Below, in pieces: positions 14,700 through 58,303 of a stretch of DNA of 64,000 bases. The stretch spans positions 496,001 to 560,000 of the forward strand of contig OX597833.1 in NCBI GenBank assembly GCA_951406725.2, read 5' to 3'. The position numbers were made by a program, and so were the translations under genes. The notes under the pieces are model-generated. The model was not told the DNA's origin and searched no databases. It was given only the letters and a program-made list of their open reading frames with translations. Positions within the stretch are counted from its first letter, which is position 1, and each line of letters begins with the position of its first letter. The DNA is from Octopus vulgaris (Eukaryota).

Positions 14700-17078
14700 C
14701 GTTTGTGTGTGTGTGTTTGTCCCCCTAGCATTGCTTGACAACCGATGCTGGTGTGCTTATGTCCCTGTCACTTAGCGGTTCGGCAAAAAGAGACCAATAG
14801 AATAAGTACTGGGCTTACAAAGAATAAGTCCCGGGGTCGATTTGCTCGATTAAAGGCGGTGCTCAAGCGTGGCTGCAGTCAAATGACTGAAACAAGTAAA
14901 AGAGTATATATATATATATATAAAGTCAAATGACTACACAAAAAGAATATATACGTGTGTGTCTGTCTTTGCATGTCCTCCATCACTGCTTGACAATCCC
15001 ATGTTGGTTTGTTTACATCCCCATAACATAACAGTTCAGCATAAGAGATTGATAGAATAAGTACCTGGCTTGAAGGGGGGAAAAAAAAAATAAGCGCTGG
15101 GTTCGAACCATTTGACTAAAACTTTTCAAGACAGTGCCCCAGCATGGCCACAGTCAATAAAATGCAAAAGATAGATTTGTTTTTCTGGCCAGAGCTGTAT
15201 TTTCTGATAAGGATTTTAAATATTCCTCAAAGATAAGCAAAATGAGAAACATTTGTATGCAATGTCACGTATTTAGTGGAGTCAACAGATTGGATGAAAC
15301 GAAGCCGTGAACCATATTTGGTCTGTGAGCCGTGCTTTATTGTTCCCCGATGTAGAAAGTAAGGCAATGTTTCACTCCTTCTCTTGATCATCAACATCAT
15401 CATCGTTTAGCATCCGTTTTCCATGCTAGCATGAGTTCGACAGTTCGACCAGGGTCTGGGAAGCCAGGAGGCTGCACCAGGCTCCAGTCTGATCTGGCAG
15501 TGTTTCTACAGCTGGATGCCCTTTCTAATGCCAACCGCTCTGTGAGTGTAGTGGGTGCTTTTTACGTGCCACCAGTACAGGGGCCAGACAAGGCTGGCAA
15601 ACGACCATGATCGGTTGCCGCTTTTTATGTATCACCAGCACAGAAGCCAGTCAGGCGGCGCTGGCAACTGCCACGTTCGGATGGTGCCTTTAACATGTCA
15701 CTGGTATGGGTATCTTAACTACAATTTCCATTTGATTTTCATTTTGATGTTGATAACAATGCAAATGCAACATAGTTTAAATGGCTCTCATTTAAAACAT
15801 TTGATATCATCATCATAAGCAGGGGGGCCCCGAAAGGGGTCTCAGGGAGTAGTGTCCCTGCTGTCCTGAGCTAGTTTTCCACCACACTTCTTAATTGTGG
15901 TAGAGGCCTTGGTTTCAGGATCATTCATGTCTAGAAATTGTGGTTGGGGCTAAGCAAGGGCATGCTCCCAGTAGAAAATCCAGCCCCAAAAAAGTCTCAT
16001 GATAGCAAAGGAGAATGGGCACCAACCAGCCCAAAGGTTGAGGAGGGCTGCACCTGCCTACCTCAGTTGCTATGGTATTGAGGTAGATCTGGCCACCCCC
16101 ACTAACGGGGACAAAACCCGGATTGAAAACACTGGATGATGATGATGATGATCATTTAACATCCGTTGTCCATGCTGCCACAAGCATGGAGAGTCATGAG
16201 GAATTAACATCATAATCGTAGGAGTGGCTGTGTGGTAAGTAGCTTGCTAACCAACCACATGGTTCTGGGTTCAGTCCCACTGCGTGGCACCTTGGGCAAG
16301 TGTCTTCTACTATAGACTCGGGCCAACCAAAGCCTTGTAGTGGATTTGGTAGACGGAAACTGAAAGTAGCCCGTCATATACATATATATATATTTATATA
16401 TATGTGTGAGTATATGTTTGTGTGTCTGTGTTTGTCCCCCCCAACATCGCTTGACAACTGATGCTGGTGTGTTTATGTCCCTGTAACTTAGTGGTTCGGC
16501 TAAAGAGACCAATAGAATAACTACTAGGCTTACAAAGAATAAGTCCTGGTGTTGATTTGCTCGACTAAAGGTGGTGCTCCAGCATGGCCACAATCAAATG
16601 ACTGAAACAAGTAAAAGAGTATCCAACCATCCACCTACTTTCTCTGCCTGCTGTTCCTGGGAGTATGGAAGGTCACGAGGGTAGAGTCCTTGGGCCCTTC
16701 TCCATTGGGTCCTATCAAGAACAACTGTCATTACACTCTCAGGTTGGATTTCCAAATATGACCAATTGTGACTATGGATATTACCCAACAATATTGTTCT
16801 TGGTCTGCAGCAAGGTCTTCTGCCTTGGCTTGTCTTGAAGAATCTGTCTTGAGATTCTTCACTGTGACATTTTAATCACATGTTTGTAGTAATGGAGTTG
16901 TGACCTCTCGATGCAGAGAAGTAAAAGCTTGACCTGAAGAGATTCCCTGATCTCTGAGCAACGTACCCTGTTGAGGAACGGTACTCCAGAGATCCTTTGG
17001 AAAAAAAAAAAAACCATTATTAAAAAAAATTAATCCCTGTGGTGATTAATTACAGCTAATAAAACAACAACGAAACAT

Positions 17079-17099
17079 TTTATTTGAAATATTTATTTA
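17079..17099 (-). terminator. Clustered AATAAA polyadenylation signals, probable MTERF4 3' end
   Basis: Minus strand reads aataaataaatatttcaaataaaatg about 420 nt after the stop, followed by GT/T-rich sequence. Confidence 0.45.
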
Positions 17100-17308
17100 T
17101 TAACATTGGAAGGGCATCCAGCTGTAGAAACACTGCCAGATCAGACTGGGCCTGGTGCAGCCTTCTGGCTTCCCAGACCCCAGTTGAACCGTCCAACCCA
17201 TGCTAGCATGGAGAATGGACGTTAAACGATGATGATGATGATTAGCAATGTGATAATGCTCAACATCATCATCATCACCATCATTATTATTACCATTCAT
17301 CATTTATC

Positions 17309-17527
17309 TGTTTCTTTACTACCCACAAGGGGCCAAATACAGAGGGGACAAAGAAGGACAGACAAACGGATTAAGTCGATTACATCGACCCCAGTGCGTA
17401 ACTGGTACTTAATTTATCGACCCCGAAAGGATGAAAGGCAAAGTCGACCTCGGTGGAATTTGAACTCAGAACATAAAGAGAGATGAAATACGGCTACGCA
17501 ATTCGCCCGGCATGCTAACGTTTCTGC
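17309..17527 (-). mobile_element. SINE family B copy overlapping the MTERF4 stop codon
   Basis: tggcagaaacgttagca...gcctttcatcctttcggggtcgataaattaagtaccag (resembles the Meta-SINE core); 8-bp TSD catttatc at 17301-17308 and 17528-17535. Confidence 0.9.
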
Positions 17528-18657
17528 CATTTATCATCATCATCCTCATCATCGTCGTCGTCGTCATCATCCTCATCGTCGTCATCATCATCATCATCGT
17601 CATCATCACTATCATAACCCTCATCATCATCGTAGTCATCTTCAATTTCTTGTTGTAGCAATTTGCAAAATGTTTGGTAATCCTTCTTAGACATATTCCC
17701 AAATTTCTCTGCAAATTCTTTGTCAGACAAATCCAAAATCGTGTCAAGGCGAGGATTCAATTGTTTCTCTTCTTTGTGTTTGCTTTTCTTGAAGAAACCA
17801 GTTCTGTACACCCAAAGATGCCTGGTTCTGATATGATCCAAGGAATGATGAAAGAGATTTGAATATCTCATCTGTGGTTGTGTGATGCCCATTTCGGAAA
17901 AAACATAATTGAATTTCTTCCTAATCATCTCCCAGTCTTCGGTGAGAATGTGCGGAGACTTTCGGATAAATAAAATAACATCATCCATTTTAAACAGAGT
18001 CTGTAATTCCCTTGCTCTCTTCACCAACATATTTGGTTCAAAAGACACAATCTCAGGGTTATGAGTGATCATCTGCCTCAAGCTGTTATCAGAGATCTTC
18101 AACGTCCGTAAACTGTTAAATACGGTACTTAATTGATTAGGGTTCTGGCCAAGAATAAGGGGATAGTTGTGTAAAGTTTTCAACATTGGTTTGTTTTTGA
18201 TACCATAATCATTAAGTGTCTTAAGAACATTTTGCCAATTTTTTACAGGAATCTTCAGCAATTCCGGGTTGTCCCCTAAGAATTCTTTTATCTTGTCCAA
18301 TGGCATGTTGAGACCTTCAAGTATAGAGATGTAACTACAGATGGTTTTGTCAGGAACTGAGGCTATCATTTTATCAACGTGTGTTGCCTTTTCTTTAATA
18401 CTTACGACCAATTCGGACACATTGTAGGGGTGAGGTGCTTGGTTAACGATGTACCTTTTTGGTTGGCAGCAGATAAATGCAGGGACAAGTGGAAAGTTTG
18501 GACATGGTGGAAATAAGTTTACAGATTTAGTTCTAAACAGTGGACAGTGGTGGTAAGCATTTTGTTGCTTACATAATACTTGCCATAATGATTTAGAAAA
18601 GAGTACCCTGACATTTCTCCAGTCAAAGAGAGATTTTGGAAACATGTTAGGCAACAT
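17515..18657 (-). CDS. MTERF4: Mitochondrial transcription termination factor 4-like protein, 380 aa, single coding exon
   Basis: Long non-repetitive ORF with mTERF-like Leu/Pro repeats (NPELLK, YPLIL, NPEIV, SPHIL). C-terminal block KFNYVFSEMG...IRTRHLW...NPRLDTIL.LSDKEF plus an acidic tail, as in MTERF4. Acceptor ttcttttgcag at 18705-18706 implies an upstream non-coding exon. Confidence 0.85.
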   Translation of the reverse strand: MLPNMFPKSLFDWRNVRVLFSKSLWQVLCKQQNAYHHCPLFRTKSVNLFPPCPNFPLVPAFICCQPKRYIVNQAPHPYNVSELVVSIKEKATHVDKMIASVPDKTICSYISILEGLNMPLDKIKEFLGDNPELLKIPVKNWQNVLKTLNDYGIKNKPMLKTLHNYPLILGQNPNQLSTVFNSLRTLKISDNSLRQMITHNPEIVSFEPNMLVKRARELQTLFKMDDVILFIRKSPHILTEDWEMIRKKFNYVFSEMGITQPQMRYSNLFHHSLDHIRTRHLWVYRTGFFKKSKHKEEKQLNPRLDTILDLSDKEFAEKFGNMSKKDYQTFCKLLQQEIEDDYDDDEGYDSDDDDDDDDDDDEDDDDDDDDEDDDDKWQKR

Positions 18658-19150
18658 CTCCAGTCATACCATATTCTCAAGATTGTCAAGAATTTCGTAA
18701 ATACCTGCAAAAGAAAGAAAAAAATCATTATATTTTGAAAGAGCTATACTAACGATGTCTATAAATACACTCACCGGTTGTTGTTTGTTTACATTTCTTT
18801 CCTCTAAAAGCACTTGTTATTCATCTATATCTTCTCCGAAATATTTTTCTTTAGACATAGTATAGATGAGGGTTAACCAATATCTTGTGAGCGAAATCAG
18901 TACAAGGAAACTGAAGAAGCACAATGTGTATTTCTTCTATCACCATCATCATTTAACGTCTGCTTTCCATGCTGGCATGGGTTGGACAGTTTCACTGGAA
19001 CTGGGAAGCTGGAGAGATGCACCAGGTTCCAGTCTGATTTGGCTTGGTTTCTATGGCTGGATGCCCTTCCTGATGCAAACCACTCAAAGAGTGTAATGGG
19101 TGCTTTTTACGTGCCACTGGCATTTACATTTTTATATATATGTCTATATA

Positions 19151-19659: not shown

Positions 19660-22531
19660 TATGCATAAACATATACGTGTATATATATATATTCATTCTT
19701 TTATTCTTTTACGTGTTTCAGTCGTCTGACTGCGGCCATGCTGGAGCACCACCTTTAGTTGAGCAAGTCGATCCCAGGACTTATTCTTTGTAAGCCTAGT
19801 ACTTATTCTATCAATCTCTTTGGCCAAACTGCTAAGTTACGGGGACATGAACACACCAACATTGATGGTCAAGCAATGTAGCGGGGGAAAACACACAAAC
19901 ATATACAGATGCATATATATATATATATATATATCTGTCCTCATCCATATGCAACCCATGGTATGGTGATGGGTTGCATATGGATGAGGACAGCTGTGCA
20001 AAAAAGTGTCACACTCTAGCAGTAGAGGGAACCTGTGGAAGAGGTAGTCCTAGGAAGACCTGGGATGAGGTGGTGAAGCACGAACTTTGAATGCTGGGCA
20101 TCATGGAGGCAATGACAAGTGATCGAGACCTTTGGAGATAGGTCACTGCTTTCCATTTGTTTCTCTTGTTCAACTTTTTTGTTTCCGTATTTCATGTTGT
20201 TTACGCTTTGTGACATCCTGTACCCATATATGCATATATATGTGTATGTGTGTGTGTATATATATATATATATCCTGTGCCGGTGGCACGTAAAAAGCAC
20301 CATCTGATTGTGGCCGTTGCCAGCCTTGCCTGGCCCTTGTGCTGGTGGCACATAAAAAGCACCATCCGATTGTGGCCGTTTGTCAGCTCCGTCTGGCACC
20401 TGTGCCGGTGGCACGTAAAAAGCACCCACTACACTCTCGGAGTGGTTGGCGTTAGGAAGGGCATCCAGCCGTAGAAACACTGCCAGATCAGATTAGAGCC
20501 TGGTGCAGCCTTCGGGCTTCCCAGACCCCAGTTGAACCGTCCAACCCATGCTAGCATGGAAAGCAGACGCTAAACGATGATGATGATGATGATGAATGAC
20601 CTCAGGAAGCTGAACCTTTCAGGTGAGATGACAAAGGACTGAGACACCTGGCTGTACTCAAGAAGACCCGTACCCTGCAGCAGCAGCATTGGGCCCAATC
20701 CTTCTGCTCGAGTAAAGCACCCATGGCGGTACCACGTAAAAACACTCATGCAGTGCCACATAAAAGCACCCATGTGACATCATGTAAAAGTGCCCGTGTG
20801 GTGCCACATTAAAGCATTGAGCTGTAGAAATCATGTGGTGAGCTGGCAGAAACGTTAGCACGCTGGGTGAAATGCTTGGCGGTATTTCGTTTGCCGCTAC
20901 GTTCTGAGTTCAAATTCTGCTGAGGTCGACTTTGCCTTTCATCCTTTCAGAGTCAATAAATTAAATACTTATTTCTTTATTACCCACAAGGTGCTAAACA
21001 CAGAGGGGACAAACAAGGACAGACGAACGGATTAAGTCGATTATATCGACCCCAGTGCGTAACTGGTACTTAATTTATCAACCCCGAAAGGATGAAAGGC
21101 AAAGTCAACCCCGACGGAATTTGAACTCAGAACGTAACGGCAGACGAAATACAGCTAAGCATTTCGCCCGGCGTGCTAACGATTCTGCGAGCTCGCCGCC
21201 CTTCGATAAATTAAGTACCAGTTATGCACTGGGGTTGATGTAATCGACTTAATCCCTTTGTCTGTCCCCTCTATGTTTAACCCCTTGTGGGTAGTAAAGA
21301 AATAAGTATTTCGGCTGTTGTCATGTTCTGAGTTCAAATTCCGTCGAGGTCAATTTTGCCTTTCATCCTTTCGGGGTCGATAAATTAAGTACCAGTTACG
21401 CACTGGGATCGATGCAATCGACTTAATCCCTTTGTCTGTCCTTGTTTGTCCCCTCTATATTTAGCCCCTTGTGGACAATAAAGAAATAAGAAAACATGCC
21501 AAATCAGTATGGAGTATGGTGCAGGCCCTAAACTTGTCAGCTCTGGTCACACTCTCCAACCCATGCAAACATGAACAATGGATGTTTTATATATACATAT
21601 ATGTTGCCAGTACTGCATGACTGGCCTTTGTGCCAGTGGCACGTAAAAGCACCCACTACACTCTTGGAGTGGTTGGCGTTAGGAAGAGCATCCAGCTGTA
21701 GAAACTCTGCCAGATCAGATTGGAGTCCGGTGCAGCCATCTGGTTCGCCAGACCTCAGTCAAATCGTCCAACCCATGCCAGCATGGAAAGCGGACGTTAA
21801 ACGATGATGATATATAGGTATTCAAGTGATTCTTATTTTATCGACACAGAAAGGACGAAAGGCGAAGTCGACCGCCGGCAGAATATAGGCATTCGGGATG
21901 CTAGAAATAACAGCCAAACCTTTTAAAAATGATACCGTAATGTCTTGAAATATTGAAAAAAATTAAAGAAATACACACATTAGTTAAGAAAAACCTCGAT
22001 ACACCCATAGGAAAAATAAACCCCAAAACAAAAAAAGGGACGTTAATGCTTGAAATTCTCGCATGACTAAGTTTACCTAGAATGAACCATTAACACGAAC
22101 AAGAATTTTTTACGCCGCAAGAAAGGTAACTTTTATTATTTTTAATAAACTAGAGGTCAAGTGATAATTACCAAAAAATAAACTGCATTCTTTAGTCTTT
22201 TAAATTCCAACACTATAAATTCAAGATGACATGCGGGAGTTTTATTGGCAAGGTCAAGATAAGGGGTCTAATATCAGAAGTAAAAAAACATACGGCATTT
22301 CACGGCACCGCGGATACTCTTTAACGACAAAAATATATCTCGATGATTTACTCAGAGTTCCAGAGACCCAAGGTTATATATTTACTTTCAGGTGATTTTT
22401 ATAACAACGGAAGAGGATTATCGTGTAACTTAGTGTCTCCGTCAGGTATGAAATAAAAGGTGGAAACTATAATTGGTTTTAATAAAATCTATATCATCTA
22501 GATGTCGCTAAACCACCTTGGTAAAGTATGT

Positions 22532-23408
22532 GGGTACTATTAGCGAACGGTGGTCCCGGTGCGCGCACTCGCGCTAGCTAGTCGTAAGTAGTCGATCCTA
22601 CAACGACTTGCGCGTATATTTAATATTATATTATGTAATTTAGTCATTTATATCGTTTTTTTTTAAAGAGTAGGAAGGTTATGATGGGAATTTGGCTGCC
22701 ATTTCTAGCACGTCAACCACCCAAGCTGAGATGAAATTCGTCCCAGTTATATAGTTGGTTGGGTACTACTAGCGAACAGTGGTCCCGGTGCGCGCACTCG
22801 CGCTAGCTAGTCGTAAGTAGTCGATCCTACAACGACTTGCGCGTATTTTTGTATTTCAAGGCTGAATACATATCGAAGGAAATTAAATAATATTTTTCAA
22901 ACAAAGTAAATAATTTTTTAAACTAATTAAATAAATTATTTTTATAAACAAACTAAGGTCGGGATTAGGGTAAAAAAGTCGTTGTAGGATCGACTACTTA
23001 CGACTAGCTAGCGCGAGTGCGCGCACCGGGACCACTGTTCGCTAGTAGTACCCAACCAACAATATAACTGGGACGAATTTCAACTCAGCTTGAGTGGTTG
23101 ACGTGCTAGAAATGGCAGCCAAATACCCATTATAACCTTCCTACTCTTAAAAAAAAAACGATATAAATGACTAAATTACATAATATAATATTAAATATAC
23201 GCGCAAGTCGTTGTAGGATCGACTACTTACGACTAGCTAGCGCGAGTGCGCGCACCGGGACCACTGTTCGCTAGTAGTACCCGTCGTAAAGTATGTGAAT
23301 TAGGTTTAGGGTTAGGGTTAGAAAGTCGTTGTAGGATCGACTGCTTGCGACTAGCTAGCGCAGATGCGCGAGTGCGCGCACCTGGACCACTGTTCGCTAG
23401 TAGTACCC
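22532..23408. mobile_element. Composite foldback element built from five copies of a 78-bp TIR
   Basis: gggtactactagcgaacagtggtcccggtgcgcgcac... at 22532 (+), 22761 (+), and ending at 23053, 23282, 23408 (-). Flanked by the 14-bp direct repeat ttggtaaagtatgt. Confidence 0.8.
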
Positions 23409-23507
23409 TTGGTAAAGTATGTGAAAGTGTTGGGACCTTACTGCATTTTTTTTTTACTTCATAATTTTCAAGTCAAACTCGGGGGAACATCGAGGTCGAA
23501 GCATCCG

Positions 23508-23933
23508 GCGATCTTTCGTCTCTAGTAGACCTTTCCGTCGATTTCCGTAAAAATTTTTTTGTTTTTTTTACATATGGGCTTGCGGGAACTTTTGAAGTAA
23601 TGAGAGCGAAAGAGACTAAGAGAAAGCGATTGTATGATGAGGGAAGTTCTTTTGAAGTTACCGTGCATGGGAAGCATTGATGTACATGTGTGTGTGTGTG
23701 TGTTTGATGGGGTGTGGGAGACGGACAGTGTGGTGTGTAAGTGAAGTGCTTCTGTTAGTGTGTGTGAAGAGACAGAGGTAACTTCAAAAGAACTTCCCTC
23801 GTCATACAATCGCTTTCTCTTAGTCTCTTTCGCTCTCATTACTTCAAAAGTTCCCGCAAGCCCATATGTAAAAAAAAAAAAAAATTTTTTTACGGAAATC
23901 GACGGAAAGGTCTACTAGAGACGAAAGATTGCC
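23508..23933. mobile_element. MITE with long TIRs (GG...CC ends, 8-bp TSD; Merlin- or hAT-like)
   Basis: TIR ggcgatctttcgtctctagtagacc..., perfect TSD aagcatcc. Confidence 0.85.
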
Positions 23934-25082
23934 AAGCATCCTTCTTCACTCCAGGGTAACCCGGGAAAAAAAAACCTTCCCCAAATTTGCATTAAAACTA
24001 AATTTGTGAGTGTATACATTTAGTTAACACGAGGGATTACCGGTACATATACTAACCGTTTAAGAAGAATAAGGAATTAAGCTATTTCCCTAATTTTATA
24101 ATTAAAAGACAAAGATTCCCTACCGAAGTTTTTCAGTTTTCACATGAGGACGGTGTCGAGGTAAAGTTGTTCCCCCTTCGAATATTATTCCACCACAAAA
24201 ATGATTTCTTTAGATTTATCTCCCTTCTCGTATTACTAATAACGCGAGCCGAAGTTCACATGTTAGAGCGACGTGCAACATTCCTCACTGTATTTATTTA
24301 CTTATATCCTTTCATGTGGAGGTGCAATGGCCCAGTTGTTAGGGCAGCGGACTCGCGGTTGTAGTATCGCGGTTTCGATTCCCCGACTGGGCGTTGTGAG
24401 TGTTTATTGAGCGAAAACACCTAAAGCTCCACCGACAGGGGGTGGTGTCGATCCCTGCTGTACTCTTTCGACACAACTTTCTTTCACTCATTCTCCTGTT
24501 GGCCTGCTCGCTTAGCCAGCGGGGTGGCGTCATTTCAAGGCTAAAAGACAATGCGAAGCGCATTGTGACCAGCGATGTGTAGCAACATCTGACAGCCTGG
24601 TCGGTCACGTGATCACGTGATATCCTTTCATATTCTGGGATTCGTAAAACTGTTAATTATGTACGTAATTAACGTCGTTGAACTCCGGTACAAAACGGAA
24701 ATGATTTTTACAAATAGAACACCATTTTTACACAGGTGACTAAAATTAATTGGCATATCCACACAAGTGTGTCTCTACCTCGACTTTATTTCCTCATAAT
24801 TTTCAGAAAACGAATATTTTCGAAGGTAATCTGCTACATACACCTTTAAAATTGTATAGGTTGCGATTATATTGGAATTTAACACAAACGAAACGAAACG
24901 AAACGAAACGAAACAAAAAAGACTTGGTGGGCGCACACACATCACACATATTTTCAATTTTAAGTTACATTTCTTAAAGGGTTTTCTATTATAGCTGGGT
25001 CGTCTGTCAAATTCCCTCACAGTGCTTTGTGAGTGAATTTGGCAGAGGGAAACTGTGTAGTGCGCGCCTACATATCTACATA

Positions 25083-25830
25083 TACCTATTTCTTTACTAC
25101 CCACAAGGGGCTGAACACAGAGGGGACAAACATGGACAGACAAAGGGATTAAGTCGATTATATCGACCCCAGTGCGTAACTGGTACTTAATTTATCGACC
25201 CCGAAAGGATGAAAGGCAAAGTCGACCTCGGCGGAATTTGAACTCAGAACGTAGCGGCAGACAAAATACCTATTTCTTTACTACCCACAAGGGGCTAAAC
25301 ATAGAGGGGACAAACAAGGACAGGCGAAGGGATTAAGTCGATTATAACGACCCCAGTGCGTAACTGGTACTTATTTAATCGACCCCGAAAGGATGAAAGG
25401 CAAAGTCGACCTCGGCGGAATTTGAACTCAGAACGTAGCGGCAGACAAAATACCTATTTCTTTACTACCCACAAGGGGCTAAACATAGAGGGGACAAACA
25501 AGGACAGGCGAAGGGATTAAGTCGATTATAACGACCTCAGTGCGTAACTGGTACTTATTTAATCGACCCCGAAAGGATGAAAGGCAAAGTCGACCTCGGC
25601 GGAATTTGAACTCAGAACGTAGCGGCAGACAAAATACCTATTTCTTTACTACCCACAAGGGGCTAAACATAGAGGGGACAAACAAGGACAGGCGAAGGGA
25701 TTAAGTCGATTATAACGACCCCAGTGCGTAACTGGTACTTATTTAATCGACCCCGAAAGGATGAAAGGCAAAGTCGACCTCGGCGGAATTTGAACTCAGA
25801 ACGTAACGACAGACGAAATACTGCTAAGTA
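25083..25830 (-). repeat. Four tandem 184-bp units of SINE family B body
   Basis: Unit starts (tacctatttc) at 25083, 25267, 25451 and 25635. Confidence 0.9.
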
Positions 25831-28604: not shown

Positions 28605-30217
28605 ATAAATGAAAGAATGGAGTCGAACGAAGATGTTAACAAAATTCCTTTACTCTCGACATATGTTTCGAAGACAACATGTTTTCATTCCAAAGGAATA
28701 AAGGGTGCATTATGCAATCATAGGATAATTCATTCACCTATTTATATATATATATATGTATATGTGTGTGTGTGTGTGTTTGTGGCTGTGGTTGTCCCCT
28801 CCCCACCATCACTGCCTGACAACCGGGGTTAGTGTGTTTACGTCCTCGTAACGCACACACACACACACACACACACACTCCCACATATACATACGACGGG
28901 CTTCTTTCAGTTTCCGTTTACCAGATCCTCTCACAAGGCCTTGGTTGGCCCGAGGCTATAGTAGAAAACACTTGCCCAAGGTGCCACGCAGTGGGACTGA
29001 ACCTGGAACCACGTGGCTGGGAAGCAAATGTTTTACCACACTGCTACGCATGCGCCTTTATTAAGGTTTCAACCCCAGTTCATTCCTTATTTGTTCTAAT
29101 TCCATGTTTGATTCGCGATTTGGTTTTTAACTAATTAAAAACACAATTAGCTCGCATTTAGTTCAGCTTTGGTCATCCTACAAACTGAGTGAAAATTCCT
29201 GCTGTTGTTTTTGCCTTTGTCCACTACGTTACCTTGGTTTTGGATTACCCCGGTCAGATAGTGACCCTTTGACCCTGTATAAATTTCTATTGCATTGTAT
29301 AGCCTATTTCTTTACTACCCACAAGGGGCTAAACACAGAGGGGACAAACAAGGACAGACAAACGGATTAAGTCGATTATATCGTCCCTAGTGCGTAAATG
29401 GTACTTATTTAATCGACCCCGAAAGGATGAAAAGCAAAGTCGACCTCGACGGAATTTGAACTCAGAACGTAACGGCAGACGAAATACTTATTTCTTTACT
29501 ACCCACAAGCGGCTAAACACAGAGGGGACAAACAAGGACAGATAAAGGGATTAAGTCGATTATATCGACCCCAGTGCGTAACTGGTACTTATTTAATCGA
29601 CCCCGTAGACGAAATACCGCTAAGCATTCCGTCCATTGCATTGCATAACCTGTACCAACCGCTGTGAAGGTGCTTGGCTTACTGGGTAGGGTACTGCACT
29701 CACGATTGCACAGTCGTGGTTTCGAATCCCGGACCGGGCGTTACGCTGTATTCTTGAGCAAAGCACTTCATTTCATTTTGCCCTGCAATCACTTCGACAC
29801 TTGGCAGTTGGCACACATATGCACCTGTAAACGCTATGCCAATTCGATGGTGGAAGTGAGCTAATGTACAGTCCAAACATCTGATCATTCTAAACAAATC
29901 AACTTTGCTGGATTTTCACCGAGAAGCTGCAAAATCTTTATCTGTCTTTTATGATAAGAGAGTCCACCACCTATTCTTGTAGGTATAAATACATGTATAT
30001 AATTGGTCTATTTGCAGACAAGTCAGTCGCAATCTATAAATCTAAAAAATAGTACGCAGGAGTGGCTGTGTGGTAAGTAGCTTGTTTACCAACCACATGG
30101 TTCCGGGTTCAGTCCCACTGCGTGGCATCTTGGGCAAGTGTCTTCTGCTATAGCCCCGGGCCGACCAATGCCTTGTGAGTGGATTTGGTAGACGGAAACT
30201 GAAAGAAGCCTGTCGTA

Positions 30218-33824: not shown

Positions 33825-36033
33825 ATAACATTAATGGAGGATTACCAGAGCCATGTTTATCCCTTTTGAATGCGGACTATGATCTTAAGAAACATGTGAT
33901 TTGTGGAAACGCGCATAGCGAGGCATTAAATATTTATAAATTCCATTCTACCATTCCTATTTTTCTTCTGCTCTAACTGTTTTACACTCTGTTCGTTTCT
34001 TTTTCATTTTTATTTAAATTTCTGAATATCACTTTTAAATTTTTTACTGATGCTTGAAAATAGGTTAAAATAATAAAAAAAATTAATTAATTATTAAAAT
34101 TCCTTTACTTCAAGTAGAAATGGAAATACTCGGTGTCCTATAAATAGGACACTGAGACAAGGTTTTCATTTAGTGTCCTATTTATAGGACAGTGTGACTT
34201 AATGGGTTAAATTTCTCGCTTTTAAACATTTGGTCGTGTGACAGACGAGACATACAAGAAGAAGAAACAGAAAACAGTGACAGAATGAATCAACGGTTTC
34301 GAGTAAATCACTAAATTGATCGTAGTATTTCTCTCCTTTGTACATCTGCACGCATGCCCACATAATATATACATACATACGGGCTGGCAGACACGTTAGC
34401 GCGCCGGGCGAAATGCTTAGCGGTGTTTCGTCTGTCGTTACGTTCCGAGTTCAAATTCCGCCGAGGTCGACTTTGCCTTTCATCCTTTCGGGGTCGATAA
34501 ATAAAGTACCAGTTTCCCACTGGGGTCGATATAATCGACTTAATCTCTTTGTCTGTCCTTGTTTGTCTCCTCTATGTTTAGCCCCTTGTGGGCAATAAAG
34601 AAATAGGTATTTCGTCTGCCGCTACGTTCTGAGTTCAAATTCCGCCGAGGTCGACTTTGCCTTTCATCCTTTCGGGGTCGATAAATTAAGTACCAGTTTC
34701 CCACTGGGGTCGATATAATCGACTTAATCCCTTTGTCTGTCTTTGTTTGTCTCTTCTATGTTTAGCCCCTTGTGGGCAGTGAAGAAATAAATATATACAT
34801 ACATACCCCCTCCATATACACATATATGTGAGTATGCGTGCGCGTGTGTGTACATATGTGAGGCTGGCAGAATCTGTAGAGCACCGGATAAAATGTGATG
34901 TGGTGGCTTTTACGTTCTAAGTTGAAATATGACATGACGTAAGCACTTGACGATAACAGAACCAACAATATTCCGACTGTGTCGTTCCAACATGGTCACA
35001 CCGCATAAAGCGTTGTGTTGATAATATCATCCCCTGATTCGTGACAGATTTGAACTCAGAATGTATGTCACCCTGTCCCCATATATATAAACACATATAT
35101 TCATAAGCATGCATGCATACACACATATACACCCATTTATACATGTACGCATGTATATATATAAACCTCAATAAACCTGCAAATGCAAGAAAATGTTAGA
35201 TCAGAGATATTTACTAAATACCTTCACTTCAGCAAGTACCTGTCAAAATACTGAAAATCATGCATTCACCCCCACTCATTAGGTCTAAACTTTTTTGTTT
35301 TTTACCAAGAACAATAATTTTTTTTACCAAAAACAATCATTTTTTTTACCAAGAACAATCGTTTTTTTTTACCAAGAACAACCATTATTTTTTTATCAAG
35401 AACAATCGCTCATCCTTACTAGGAGATATCATTGATCTCAATATATTTCCTTTAATAACAAATTCATTAACATTTTCAATATTTTATCTTTCCATGCTTA
35501 TATAGCAGAGTGGTTAAATGCTTAGTTATTCACCAGAAGCATTCACATTGTCTTATATCCCCCTTCAGCTTTAACCCATTAAAGCTTCCCAAGATATTTA
35601 ACTTTCCATAATGTATGTCCACACAGACTTCCTTAATTTGTCTCTTTCTTTTTTTTCTTCCCCTGAGCGTATTATATTCACGTCCTTCATCTTTCAGCCA
35701 TTTAAAAGTTTTTAAATTTCTTCTGACCTTTCAAAGAAAACAATCCACTTCTAAGAATATTAAAATGGAATGAATTATGCCCCTCATAATTTTTAACTCG
35801 AAATGCGTTTCTAGAAACTCCATATACGAAGAAAACATATCTCAAAAAAATATTTCAGTCACGGGTTGATGTTTGTCGTCGGACGATTTCTTAGCATTTT
35901 CTGGGCAGGAAACTTAACGTAACGATCATGAATCGTCTTTATCGTATAATATATTATTCTACTACTGCATCGGTTATTATTTGAACTACTTACCGTATTC
36001 TTGTTTATTTAAACACCCAATATACATACATGC

Positions 36034-46935: not shown

Positions 46936-48465
46936 CTGGAAATATAAAGTAAAACCTATAATTAAAACAATCAGATCGAAACATCGTATAAGTGTAAATA
47001 CTGGTTGTAAATTTTGGCACAAGGCCAGCAATTTCTGGTGGGGAGGGGGTGCAAGTCGTGCAAGTCGATTACATTGAACCCAGTGCTCAACTGGTACTTA
47101 TTTTATCGACCCAGAAATGTTAAAAGGCAAAACTGACCTCGGCTGAATTTGAACTCAGAACGTAAAGACGGACCAAATAATAATTTCTTTACTACCCACA
47201 AGGGGCTAAACACAGAGAGGACAAACAAGAACATACAAACGGATTAAGTCGATTATATCGACCCCAGTGCGTAACTGGTACTTAATTTATCGACCCCGAA
47301 AGGATGAAAGACATAGTCGACCTCGGCTGAATTTGAACTCAGAACGTAAAGACGGACCAAATAATAATTTCTTTACTACCCACAAGGGGCTAAACACAGA
47401 GAGGAGCCAAACAAGGACAGACAAACGGATTAAGTCGATTAGATTGACCTCAGTGCGAAACTGGTACTTTATTTATCGACCCCGAAAGGATGAAAGGCAA
47501 AGTCGCTCTCGGCGGAATTTGAACTCAGAACGTAGCGGTAGACGAAATACCGCCAAAGCTTCTGGCTGGTGAGGATCGAACCACAATTCACCTACTTTCA
47601 ATCCAGATTTCCTCCCAGCCCTCGCCCCTCAAACTTCGTCTATCTTTTTTCTGCATCGTCTTTCACGTCTTCCTAACCTTCTTTCAGTCCCATCTCACTA
47701 CATTTGCCTTCAAGATGATTGACACTTGCGTCCACTTTGCCATACATTCAACACTTATTAAACTCGGTGGCTTCTGTCAATTTTTGTTTTAACAACATTT
47801 GTTCTAATCGCTTGTTCTTGCGCAGTCATGATAAGGGTCGCGATTTCTGTTTACAGTTTTACAACCATCTCTCAGTCAAACTCATAACTCCTCTCCTTCC
47901 TATGTCCTCCCTTTACAAACTGACAAACTGCCCATGTAACACTCTTTTTCCCGTCCTCTTTTCAATCGTTTCCCTTCTTTTGTTTATAATCCTTTATTCT
48001 AAGTGCTTAACATTGATCTCCCTGCTTGTTCTTATAAAGCCTCATCGCTTCTCCTAATGCACTTCCCTACCTTTATAATTGCCAAGTACACTGGGACGAT
48101 ACACGGTACATTACGTGACCCCTCAATTTCACATTTTTCTCGAGTCCCTGAACCACAGATTCCTTCGTTTTCTCGGGCTATTAACGCACCAAATTCTTAA
48201 TGCACAAGTTCTTCTACGTAGCCAGTGCCGCCCCAAAGGCATGTCGAAGAGGGAGTTAGGAGTTAGGAGGAGGTGAAGGGGCGGCAAGGTAACATAATTA
48301 ACATATCAAATTTTACCTATAATAGTTATTATATTATACAATGCATGTATATATACATACATGCACACACACATATACATCAATTCATACATACATACAT
48401 CAATATACATCAATTCATTCATACATACATACATAATACATACATAATACATACATACATACATA

Positions 48466-57260: not shown

Positions 57261-58303
57261 AAGTATGAAGATCTTGCTAAATTTCTTCCAAAAGCTTGAA
57301 GTTCTTCAAATTTCCACCGGGCTATTTTTTAAAATACAGTTTTGCATGATAATGATAAGAATAGCTTTATTTTTATTTTTCTAAAAAGTTACATCGGTGT
57401 TGAAAATAGAATGTAGTAAAAATTTGAACTATTTCAAGTGGTTGGAAGAAATTTTATAAGATCCAAGTATAATGGTAAAAAGAATAGAAAAAATAAACGA
57501 AGAAGACAAAGGAGAGGGTGAGGGATAGGGAGGGAGAAAAAGTATGGCGGGGAAGAGAAAGGGAGAGCCTTAGGAAAATGAAAGAAGGAAAACTAGGTAC
57601 CGATAGAAAGATAAAGGAAACGTGGAGAGATATGAAGAACATATCTATTTCATTACTACCCACAAGGTTCTAAACACAGAGAGGACAAACAAGGACAGAC
57701 AAATAGATTAAGTCGATTATATCGACCCCAGTGCGTAACTGGTACTTATTTAATCGACCCCGAAAGGATGAAAGGCAAAATCGACCTCGGCGGAATTTGA
57801 ACTCAGAACGTAGCGGTAGACGAAATACCTATTTCTTTACTACCCACAAGGGGCTGAACACAGAGGGGACAAACAAGGACAGACAAATAGATTAAGTCGA
57901 TTATATCGACCCCAGTGCGTAACTGGTACTTATTTAATCGACCCCCGAAAGGATGAAAGGCAAAGTCGACCTCGGCGGAATTTGAACTCGGAACGTAACG
58001 GCAGACGAAATACGGCTACGCATTTCGCCCGGCGTGCTAACGTTTCTGCCAGCTCACCGTCCTTTTAATATGAAGAACATATCAACGTATGAAGAATTGA
58101 AAGAATGAGATAGAAAGAAGAAAGAGGAAGAGCGAGGGAGGGGGAGGGACGGAGAGGAATGGAGAGAGAGAGGGGGGAAGGAGGGAGGGGAGGGGGAGAG
58201 GGAGGGAGAGAGAGTTGTGAACGAGAGTAAAGCGGGCGTTTACGCGTGCGCACGCGTGTGCCTGTGTCGCTGAGTTTGTCTATATATGTGTGTGTAACTT
58301 GAC

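What the first reader, a model, noticed from the sequence alone, without database searches (positions are those of the whole stretch)
17295..17540. SINE insertion split the MTERF4 stop codon and now encodes the C-terminus
Seen: the 8-bp TSD GATAAATG (minus strand) flanks a 5'-truncated SINE B. Removing the SINE and one TSD restores GAT AAA TGA TGA (D K stop stop). With the insertion TGA becomes TGG, and the SINE head supplies W-Q-K-R-TAG plus the first 200 nt or so of 3' UTR. The TG is also microhomology with the SINE consensus (ctggcagaaacg). This is a base-exact example of SINE-derived coding sequence.
Basis: seen in the sequence. Interest (0 to 1): 0.7.

Follow-up and report, generated by a model that had tools for sequence, protein, structure and literature searches.

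The report
SINE replaces octopus MTERF4 stop codon
A short jumping DNA element sits exactly in the stop signal of an octopus mitochondrial gene, so the reading frame runs four amino acids into the element before stopping while a sister species' protein ends at the old stop; the addition falls in a tail predicted to be floppy and is likely harmless.

Summary
A 219-nt SINE (17527-17309, minus strand, lacking about 10 nt of its 5' end) lies between two copies of GATAAATG at the end of the single MTERF4 gene. With it the frame ends D-K-W-Q-K-R-TAG; without it D-K-TGA-TGA. The Octopus sinensis ortholog (XP_036366580.1, 98% identical) ends E-D-D-D-D-K, exactly the predicted empty allele. The duplication sits in the family's usual register (23 of 42 duplication-bearing copies) and begins with the family's preferred xxTA target. 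The four residues are the unchanged family consensus and follow a poly-Asp tail predicted to be disordered, which itself differs by 10 residues between the two species. It is most likely a tolerated, neutral insertion, a known kind of event. Open points: no read or RNA evidence across the junction, no O. sinensis DNA seen, and the copy's 5% divergence from its subfamily suggests an age greater than the species split. Interest is low; the site is useful mainly as a presence/absence marker.

The parts
17515..18657 (-). MTERF4 coding sequence, single coding exon, 380 aa from the first in-frame ATG that matches the O. sinensis start
   Evidence: Pfam mTERF E 2e-19; 98% to XP_036366580.1; best solved relative human MTERF4, E about 1e-25; one match in G000
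17533..17644 (-). GAT/GAC microsatellite coding the poly-Asp tail
   Evidence: TRF period 3 and 18; residues 338-376 of P0001 have pLDDT under 50
17528..17535 (-). 5' copy of the target-site duplication GATAAATG (codons D, K and the TG of the old TGA); its last TG also matches the SINE consensus
17309..17527 (-). SINE copy, 219 nt, same orientation as the gene, about 10 nt missing at the 5' end
   Evidence: 88-92% to full-length window copies, 94% to the best genome copies, 11 of 221 differences from the nearest subfamily consensus
17515..17529 (-). New end of the frame: TGG CAG AAA CGT TAG (W Q K R stop)
   Evidence: the same five codons read WQKR-stop in 36 of 76 sampled family copies
17301..17308 (-). 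3' copy of the duplication, followed by ATGA: the old TGA TGA double stop, now in the 3' UTR
17100..17225 (+). 3' part of a second, different repeat family, antisense within the putative 3' UTR
   Evidence: sequence; very high contig depth at 17102-17237; no BLAST match to the first SINE
17079..17101 (-). Three AATAAA hexamers, candidate polyadenylation signals; none lies inside the SINE
   Evidence: use not tested

Best explanation
A SINE copy flanked by an 8-nt duplication interrupts the TGA stop of MTERF4 and supplies four codons and a TAG, and it likely arrived by ordinary target-primed retrotransposition and likely persists as a neutral change to a tail predicted to be disordered. Shown: the duplication, the in-frame WQKR-stop, the D-K end of the O. 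sinensis protein, and the family's register and xxTA target preference. Inferred: a LINE enzyme cut at GATA in the D-K codons; the element's 3' end (TA|GGTA) primed on the similar target; cDNA synthesis stopped about 10 nt short and joined through a TG microhomology; the next SINE base turned TGA into TGG. Inferred: it was tolerated because the frame meets a stop after 4 codons and the folded domain ends some 30 residues earlier.
For: The ortholog ends ...EDDDDK, as the in-silico empty site does. The duplication starts 2 nt after AAAGAAA, the modal register (23 of 42 copies with a duplication of 8 nt or more, among 74 examined). 18 of the 22 other copies in that register begin xxTA, against 9.2% TA in the region; this one begins GATA, one of only two such [GAT][GA]TA sites in the last 153 nt of the frame. 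WQKR-stop is the commonest reading of the family head, 36 of 76, so no adaptation is needed to explain it. The tail has pLDDT under 50. Relatives end freely: EEEQRK in Argonauta, YKPGKK in Danionella, DLEDE, LEEDE, DFDN in unnamed relatives. The poly-Asp run differs by 10 residues from O. sinensis.
Against: The copy differs from its nearest subfamily consensus at 11 of 221 sites (4 CpG transitions), the best sister is 94% identical (40 of 1264 candidates scored), and three pattern searches found no near-identical sister. At 0.0036 per site per Myr (PMC13282606) that is 5-14 Myr, older than the 2.5 Myr split quoted in PMC10700109, so a simple post-split insertion fits poorly. At 8 nt the duplication is at the short end of the family's range (8-20 nt, two microsatellite cases aside) and lies in GAT-rich DNA. 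No read or transcript across the junction was seen.
Confidence: 0.82

Rival explanations
1. The insertion is older than the species split and is shared; O. sinensis carries the SINE but regained a stop by TGG to TGA or TAG.
For: Divergence from the subfamily consensus gives 5-14 Myr on the published rate. A stop at this codon occurs in 3 of 76 sampled family copies. Only the sister's protein was seen.
Against: It needs one of two specific transitions within about 2.5 Myr, roughly 1-2% by my arithmetic on that rate. The rate is borrowed from O. bimaculoides (PMC13282606, methods). Diverged source elements, CpG decay in a gene body and ancestral polymorphism would all inflate the apparent age (inference). 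The SINE origin of WQKR would still stand.
Confidence: 0.08
2. The insertion is a rare or private allele, or an assembly artefact, and not the species' usual gene end.
For: The exact window protein is not in the protein collection (2 starts tried). Both flanks are microsatellite-like and no laid contig spanned the junction.
Against: A clean duplication in the family's register with the family's target motif is not what a misjoin makes. At least 6 private substitutions argue for an old allele and not a new private one.
Confidence: 0.05
3. The insertion is functional: the SINE-derived stop, basic end or 3' UTR changes MTERF4 output, for example through A-to-I editing of the single UAG, or altered stability.
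For: A double TGA was replaced by a single UAG inside a repeat with about 380,000 heads genome-wide (63 in 464 kb, extrapolated). An antisense copy of the head lies 3.3 kb upstream and can pair with it (-112.6 kcal/mol). An Alu UAG is edited to Trp in human NARF (PMC1852406, passages).
Against: That upstream copy has a much stronger neighbour partner (-202.0 kcal/mol), and it is not shown to lie within the transcript. The local fold is no better than shuffles (z -0.66). There is no new AATAAA or ATTAAA in the SINE. The codons are unchanged consensus. No RNA evidence was obtained.
Confidence: 0.05

Closest known systems
TE insertions that give a host gene a new stop codon and C-terminus, e.g. 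wheat Mariam in TRIDC2AG023940 (PMC6824096; abstract and passages)
   Same: A short non-coding element inserted in a coding exon is read in frame to its own stop and alters the C-terminus.
   Different: Mariam is not a SINE and truncates a domain; here nothing is lost, the element lands inside the stop codon and adds 4 residues.
Alu/SINE exonization in mammals (PMC2203978; passages)
   Same: Non-coding SINE letters become nominal coding sequence; that paper cautions that such sequence seldom has shown protein function.
   Different: Alu exons typically arise from intronic copies through new splice sites; this is a direct insertion into the last coding exon and needs no splicing, so any transcript of this allele that reaches the stop would carry it.
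NARF Alu-exon with an edited UAG (PMC1852406; passages)
   Same: A UAG inside a SINE with an inverted copy nearby.
   Different: Editing is shown for NARF; here it is only a possibility, and the nearby inverted copy has a better partner.
Octopus tRNA-derived SINEs OK, OR1, OR2 (Ohshima and Okada 1994; paper not seen, cited in PMC4824008 and PMC4758252 for OR1 and OR2; the name OK is recalled)
   Same: High-copy short octopus repeat with a tRNA-like head.

Membership tests
tRNA-derived SINE | Short, interspersed, high copy number | tested here: met
   About 230 nt; 63 heads in 464 kb; 1264 candidates genome-wide
tRNA-derived SINE | Flanked by variable-length target-site duplications | tested here: met
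   42 of 74 copies have 8 nt or more, mostly 8-20 nt
tRNA-derived SINE | Internal Pol III A and B boxes in a tRNA-like head | tested here: inconclusive
   GAGTTCAAATTCC (B-box-like) and TGGCAGAAACGTTAG (A-box-like) are in the sequence, judged against recalled motifs; Rfam gave no tRNA match at E up to 10
tRNA-derived SINE | 3' tail shared with a partner LINE | not tested
   Earlier unchecked notes on this genome propose a Tx1 partner for an abundant SINE; not compared here
Octopus OK/OR1/OR2 SINE families | Sequence match to the published consensus | not testable with these tools
   No repeat library is held; the 1994 paper was seen only as a citation
MTERF4 | mTERF repeats, closer to MTERF4 than to other MTERFs | tested here: met
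   PF02536; human MTERF4 E about 1e-25 against E 6e-8 for chain 3m66_A; 98% to annotated O. sinensis MTERF4
MTERF4 | Acidic C-terminal tail after the last helix | tested here: met
   Aligns with the human acidic tail; last helix ends at residue 341
Exapted TE-derived coding sequence | TE letters in frame with the host gene | tested here: met
Exapted TE-derived coding sequence | Absent from an outgroup at the orthologous site | tested here: met
   At protein level only: O. sinensis ends D-K; its DNA was not seen
Exapted TE-derived coding sequence | Present in mRNA and protein | tested here: inconclusive
   Contigs of 4 of 4 laid runs cover 17644-18000, but the repeats at both junctions were skipped
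Exapted TE-derived coding sequence | Selection on, or function of, the TE-derived residues | tested here: inconclusive
   The 13 SINE-derived coding and stop letters are unchanged from consensus, too few to test; one lineage only

The most novel reading that the evidence does not exclude
The SINE handed an essential mitoribosome factor a single, editable UAG. Pairing with an antisense copy in the pre-mRNA lets ADAR turn it into Trp, giving a second isoform that ends WQKR-WHAGRIA in a lineage known for heavy recoding: a retroposon-built, editing-controlled stop switch.
Probability: 0.04. Interest if true: 0.65.

Novelty: new member of a known kind. Interest (0 to 1): 0.22.

Why it matters
It is a clean, base-exact case of a SINE supplying a stop codon and a few residues, with the empty state visible in a sister species' protein. 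It could serve as a presence/absence marker in the common-octopus species complex and as one test point for the published octopus repeat clock, which it appears to contradict. It shows that this SINE family's xxTA target preference reaches coding ends. It does not, on present evidence, change what MTERF4 does. No held paper names both 'octopus' and 'MTERF4'; supplements were not searched.

Tried and rejected
Read-level test: contigs of four runs (X1, X2, X13, X17; 4 of 24 listed) were laid on 17000-18000. Other SINE copies swamped the element and the repeats 17225-17298 and 17528-17643 were skipped, so presence, absence and expression of the junction stay open. No RNA holder is listed on record. 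Exact look-up of the window protein from two starts: not in the collection. Search among shorter proteins: 0 of 95 candidates passed; no protein named as O. bimaculoides appeared. The search of 50% representatives was still queued at the end, so the survey of tail ends rests on 7 sequences read. A closer source subfamily: 1, 6 and 9 other copies share single variant blocks, none above 94% overall. A structured RNA at the stop: z -0.66; 27 Rfam matches, all far below gathering scores. New polyadenylation signal in the SINE: none. A frameshift in the sister's A-run as the cause of its D-K end: adding or removing one A in the filled allele gives Met or Asn-Gly, not a stop (read from the sequence). 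Targeting signals or degrons in WQKR: no match to PTS1, KKxx or the FEM1 K/R-x(1-2)-R pattern (motifs recalled, no call). The two crystal-structure papers on MTERF4-NSUN4 are not held, so the role of the acidic tail is not sourced. Earlier findings near this place, by these words and by this sequence: none.

Full report
Observation. On the minus strand GATAAATG stands at 17535-17528 and again at 17308-17301, with 219 nt of a high-copy repeat between. The open frame 18663-17515 carries an mTERF domain and ends DDDDK-WQKR-TAG. Cutting out the repeat and one duplication gives DDDDK-stop-stop. A duplication of 8 nt or more this close to both ends arose in 145 of 20000 random flanks, 265 of 20000 shuffled flanks and 49 of 20000 triplet shuffles.

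The gene. The domain has one match in G000. Its closest relative is O. sinensis MTERF4 isoform X3, XP_036366580.1, with 6 differences in the first 345 residues; the window is therefore likely from the common-octopus complex, and I treat it as O. vulgaris for the dating argument. Human MTERF4 is the best solved relative and also has an acidic tail. In mammals MTERF4 works with NSUN4 in large mitoribosomal subunit assembly and its knockout is lethal in mice (PMC8067846, passages; PMC8209004, passages).

The outgroup. The O. sinensis protein ends DDDEDDDDK, letter for letter the end predicted for the empty site.

The element. I sampled near-full copies from 464 kb around and including the window and from the 29 best genome hits. 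Of 74 with head and tail, 42 have a perfect duplication of 8 nt or more; in 23 of the 42 it starts 2 nt after the terminal AAAGAAA, as here. In that register 18 of the 22 other copies begin xxTA (GGTA 9, TATA 4, GATA 2, AATA 2, ATTA 1), against 9.2% TA in the region. The element's own 3' end continues TA-GGTA, so the target resembles the element's tail, which suggests priming by microhomology (inference). This copy lacks only the leader GGCGGCGAGC; the sample was chosen for near-full heads and says nothing on how common deeper truncation is. Earlier unchecked notes on this genome describe an abundant SINE moved by a Tx1 LINE that targets the SINE's own head. The 184-nt tandem units in this window begin at GTATTTCG inside the head, which fits, but I did not test that it is the same family.

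Mechanism, most likely. A LINE enzyme cut at GATA in the last two codons; the SINE RNA primed there; the copy ended about 10 nt short and joined through TG; eight target bases were duplicated. The first SINE base made TGG of TGA, and the head's own frame reaches TAG after Q-K-R. The junction anatomy is shown; the enzymatic steps are inferred from how non-LTR retroposons insert (established knowledge).

Consequence. The model has a well-folded helical domain ending at residue 341 and pLDDT under 50 for 338-376 (12-sequence alignment). WQKR-stop is simply the family's commonest reading, 36 of 76 copies. Relatives end in many ways, and the poly-Asp run alone differs by 10 residues from O. sinensis. 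The SINE adds 206 nt to the putative 3' UTR and no AATAAA or ATTAAA; three AATAAA lie at 17101-17079. I read this as a tolerated neutral change.

Against a simple story. The copy differs at 11 of 221 sites from the consensus of its 36 nearest sampled copies (4 are CpG transitions) and at 14 from the consensus of 42 local copies, whose median is 13-14. The best sister is 94% identical, with only 40 of 1264 candidates scored; pattern searches found variant blocks shared with 1, 6 and 9 other copies but no close sister. With 0.0036 per site per Myr (PMC13282606, parts 1 and 2 of 3 read), 4 to 11 changes mean 5 to 14 Myr, against a 2.5 Myr split (PMC10700109 and PMC13093632, passages). About 2 changes would be expected since the split; 6 or more has probability 0.016. 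Either the clock or the consensus overstates the age, or the allele was polymorphic in the ancestor, or O. sinensis has the SINE with a regained stop, as 3 of 76 family copies do at that codon. I put the last at about 8%.

Not shown. Contigs of 4 of 4 laid runs cover the coding stretch 17644-18000, two of them guessed to be RNA, but the repeats at both junctions were skipped. Whether the allele is fixed, transcribed across the junction or translated is open.

Boldest reading. A single UAG within a SINE could be edited to Trp, as in human NARF (PMC1852406, passages); read-through would add WHAGRIA. An antisense head 3.3 kb upstream pairs at -112.6 kcal/mol, but its neighbour pairs with it at -202.0, the local fold is unremarkable, and the transcript's 5' extent is unknown. 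Probability about 4%.

Comparison and verdict. Elements that give a gene a new stop and C-terminus are known (wheat Mariam, PMC6824096, passages; Alu exonization, PMC2203978, passages). No held paper has both 'octopus' and 'MTERF4'; the listings of searches on SINE or TE with stop codon and C-terminus and on octopus SINEs showed no title on this case; supplements were not searched. Real, neat, a new member of a known kind, probably neutral: interest 0.22.

Noticed in passing
window 25082-25821; also 34385-34796, 57642-58051, 47062-47553, 29304-29605: Head-to-tail stacks of 184-nt units of the same SINE; each extra unit begins at GTATTTCG inside the head, right after the previous unit's tail, and several stacks share one outer duplication. 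Fits earlier notes on a self-targeting SINE.
   Followed up: partly
window and 400 kb around it; L043-L071: The family's duplications start right after AAAGAAATA and mostly begin xxTA, mirroring the element's own 3' end GGTA.
   Followed up: yes
window 20830-21486: Three or four copies of the SINE packed in alternating orientation, able to form a long hairpin (-202 kcal/mol for one pair), 2-3 kb upstream of the MTERF4 coding exon.
   Followed up: partly
window 23470-23960: A long inverted repeat, arms of about 150 nt or more around a spacer of about 115 nt with a CA run; foldback or MITE-like (read).
   Followed up: no
window 22520-23420: About five copies, in both orientations, of a CpG-rich unit of about 80 nt, one beside TAACCC-like repeats (read).
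   Followed up: no
window 18705-18774 (minus strand): Candidate 70-nt intron (GTGAGT ... TTTTGCAG) in the 5' UTR just upstream of the start codon; the first exon was not located.
   Followed up: no
window 17776 and 17860: Runs X13 (organism B) and X17 (organism A) share two synonymous differences from the window that X1 and X2 (organism A) lack.
   Followed up: no
window 17533-17644: The poly-Asp microsatellite is 10 codons longer than in O. sinensis, a larger change to the protein than the SINE makes.
   Followed up: partly
L072 (G000:C12:87935027-87938061): An element with nearly the same head as this copy but a different 3' tail, suggesting that head and tail modules are exchanged between subfamilies.
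   Followed up: no
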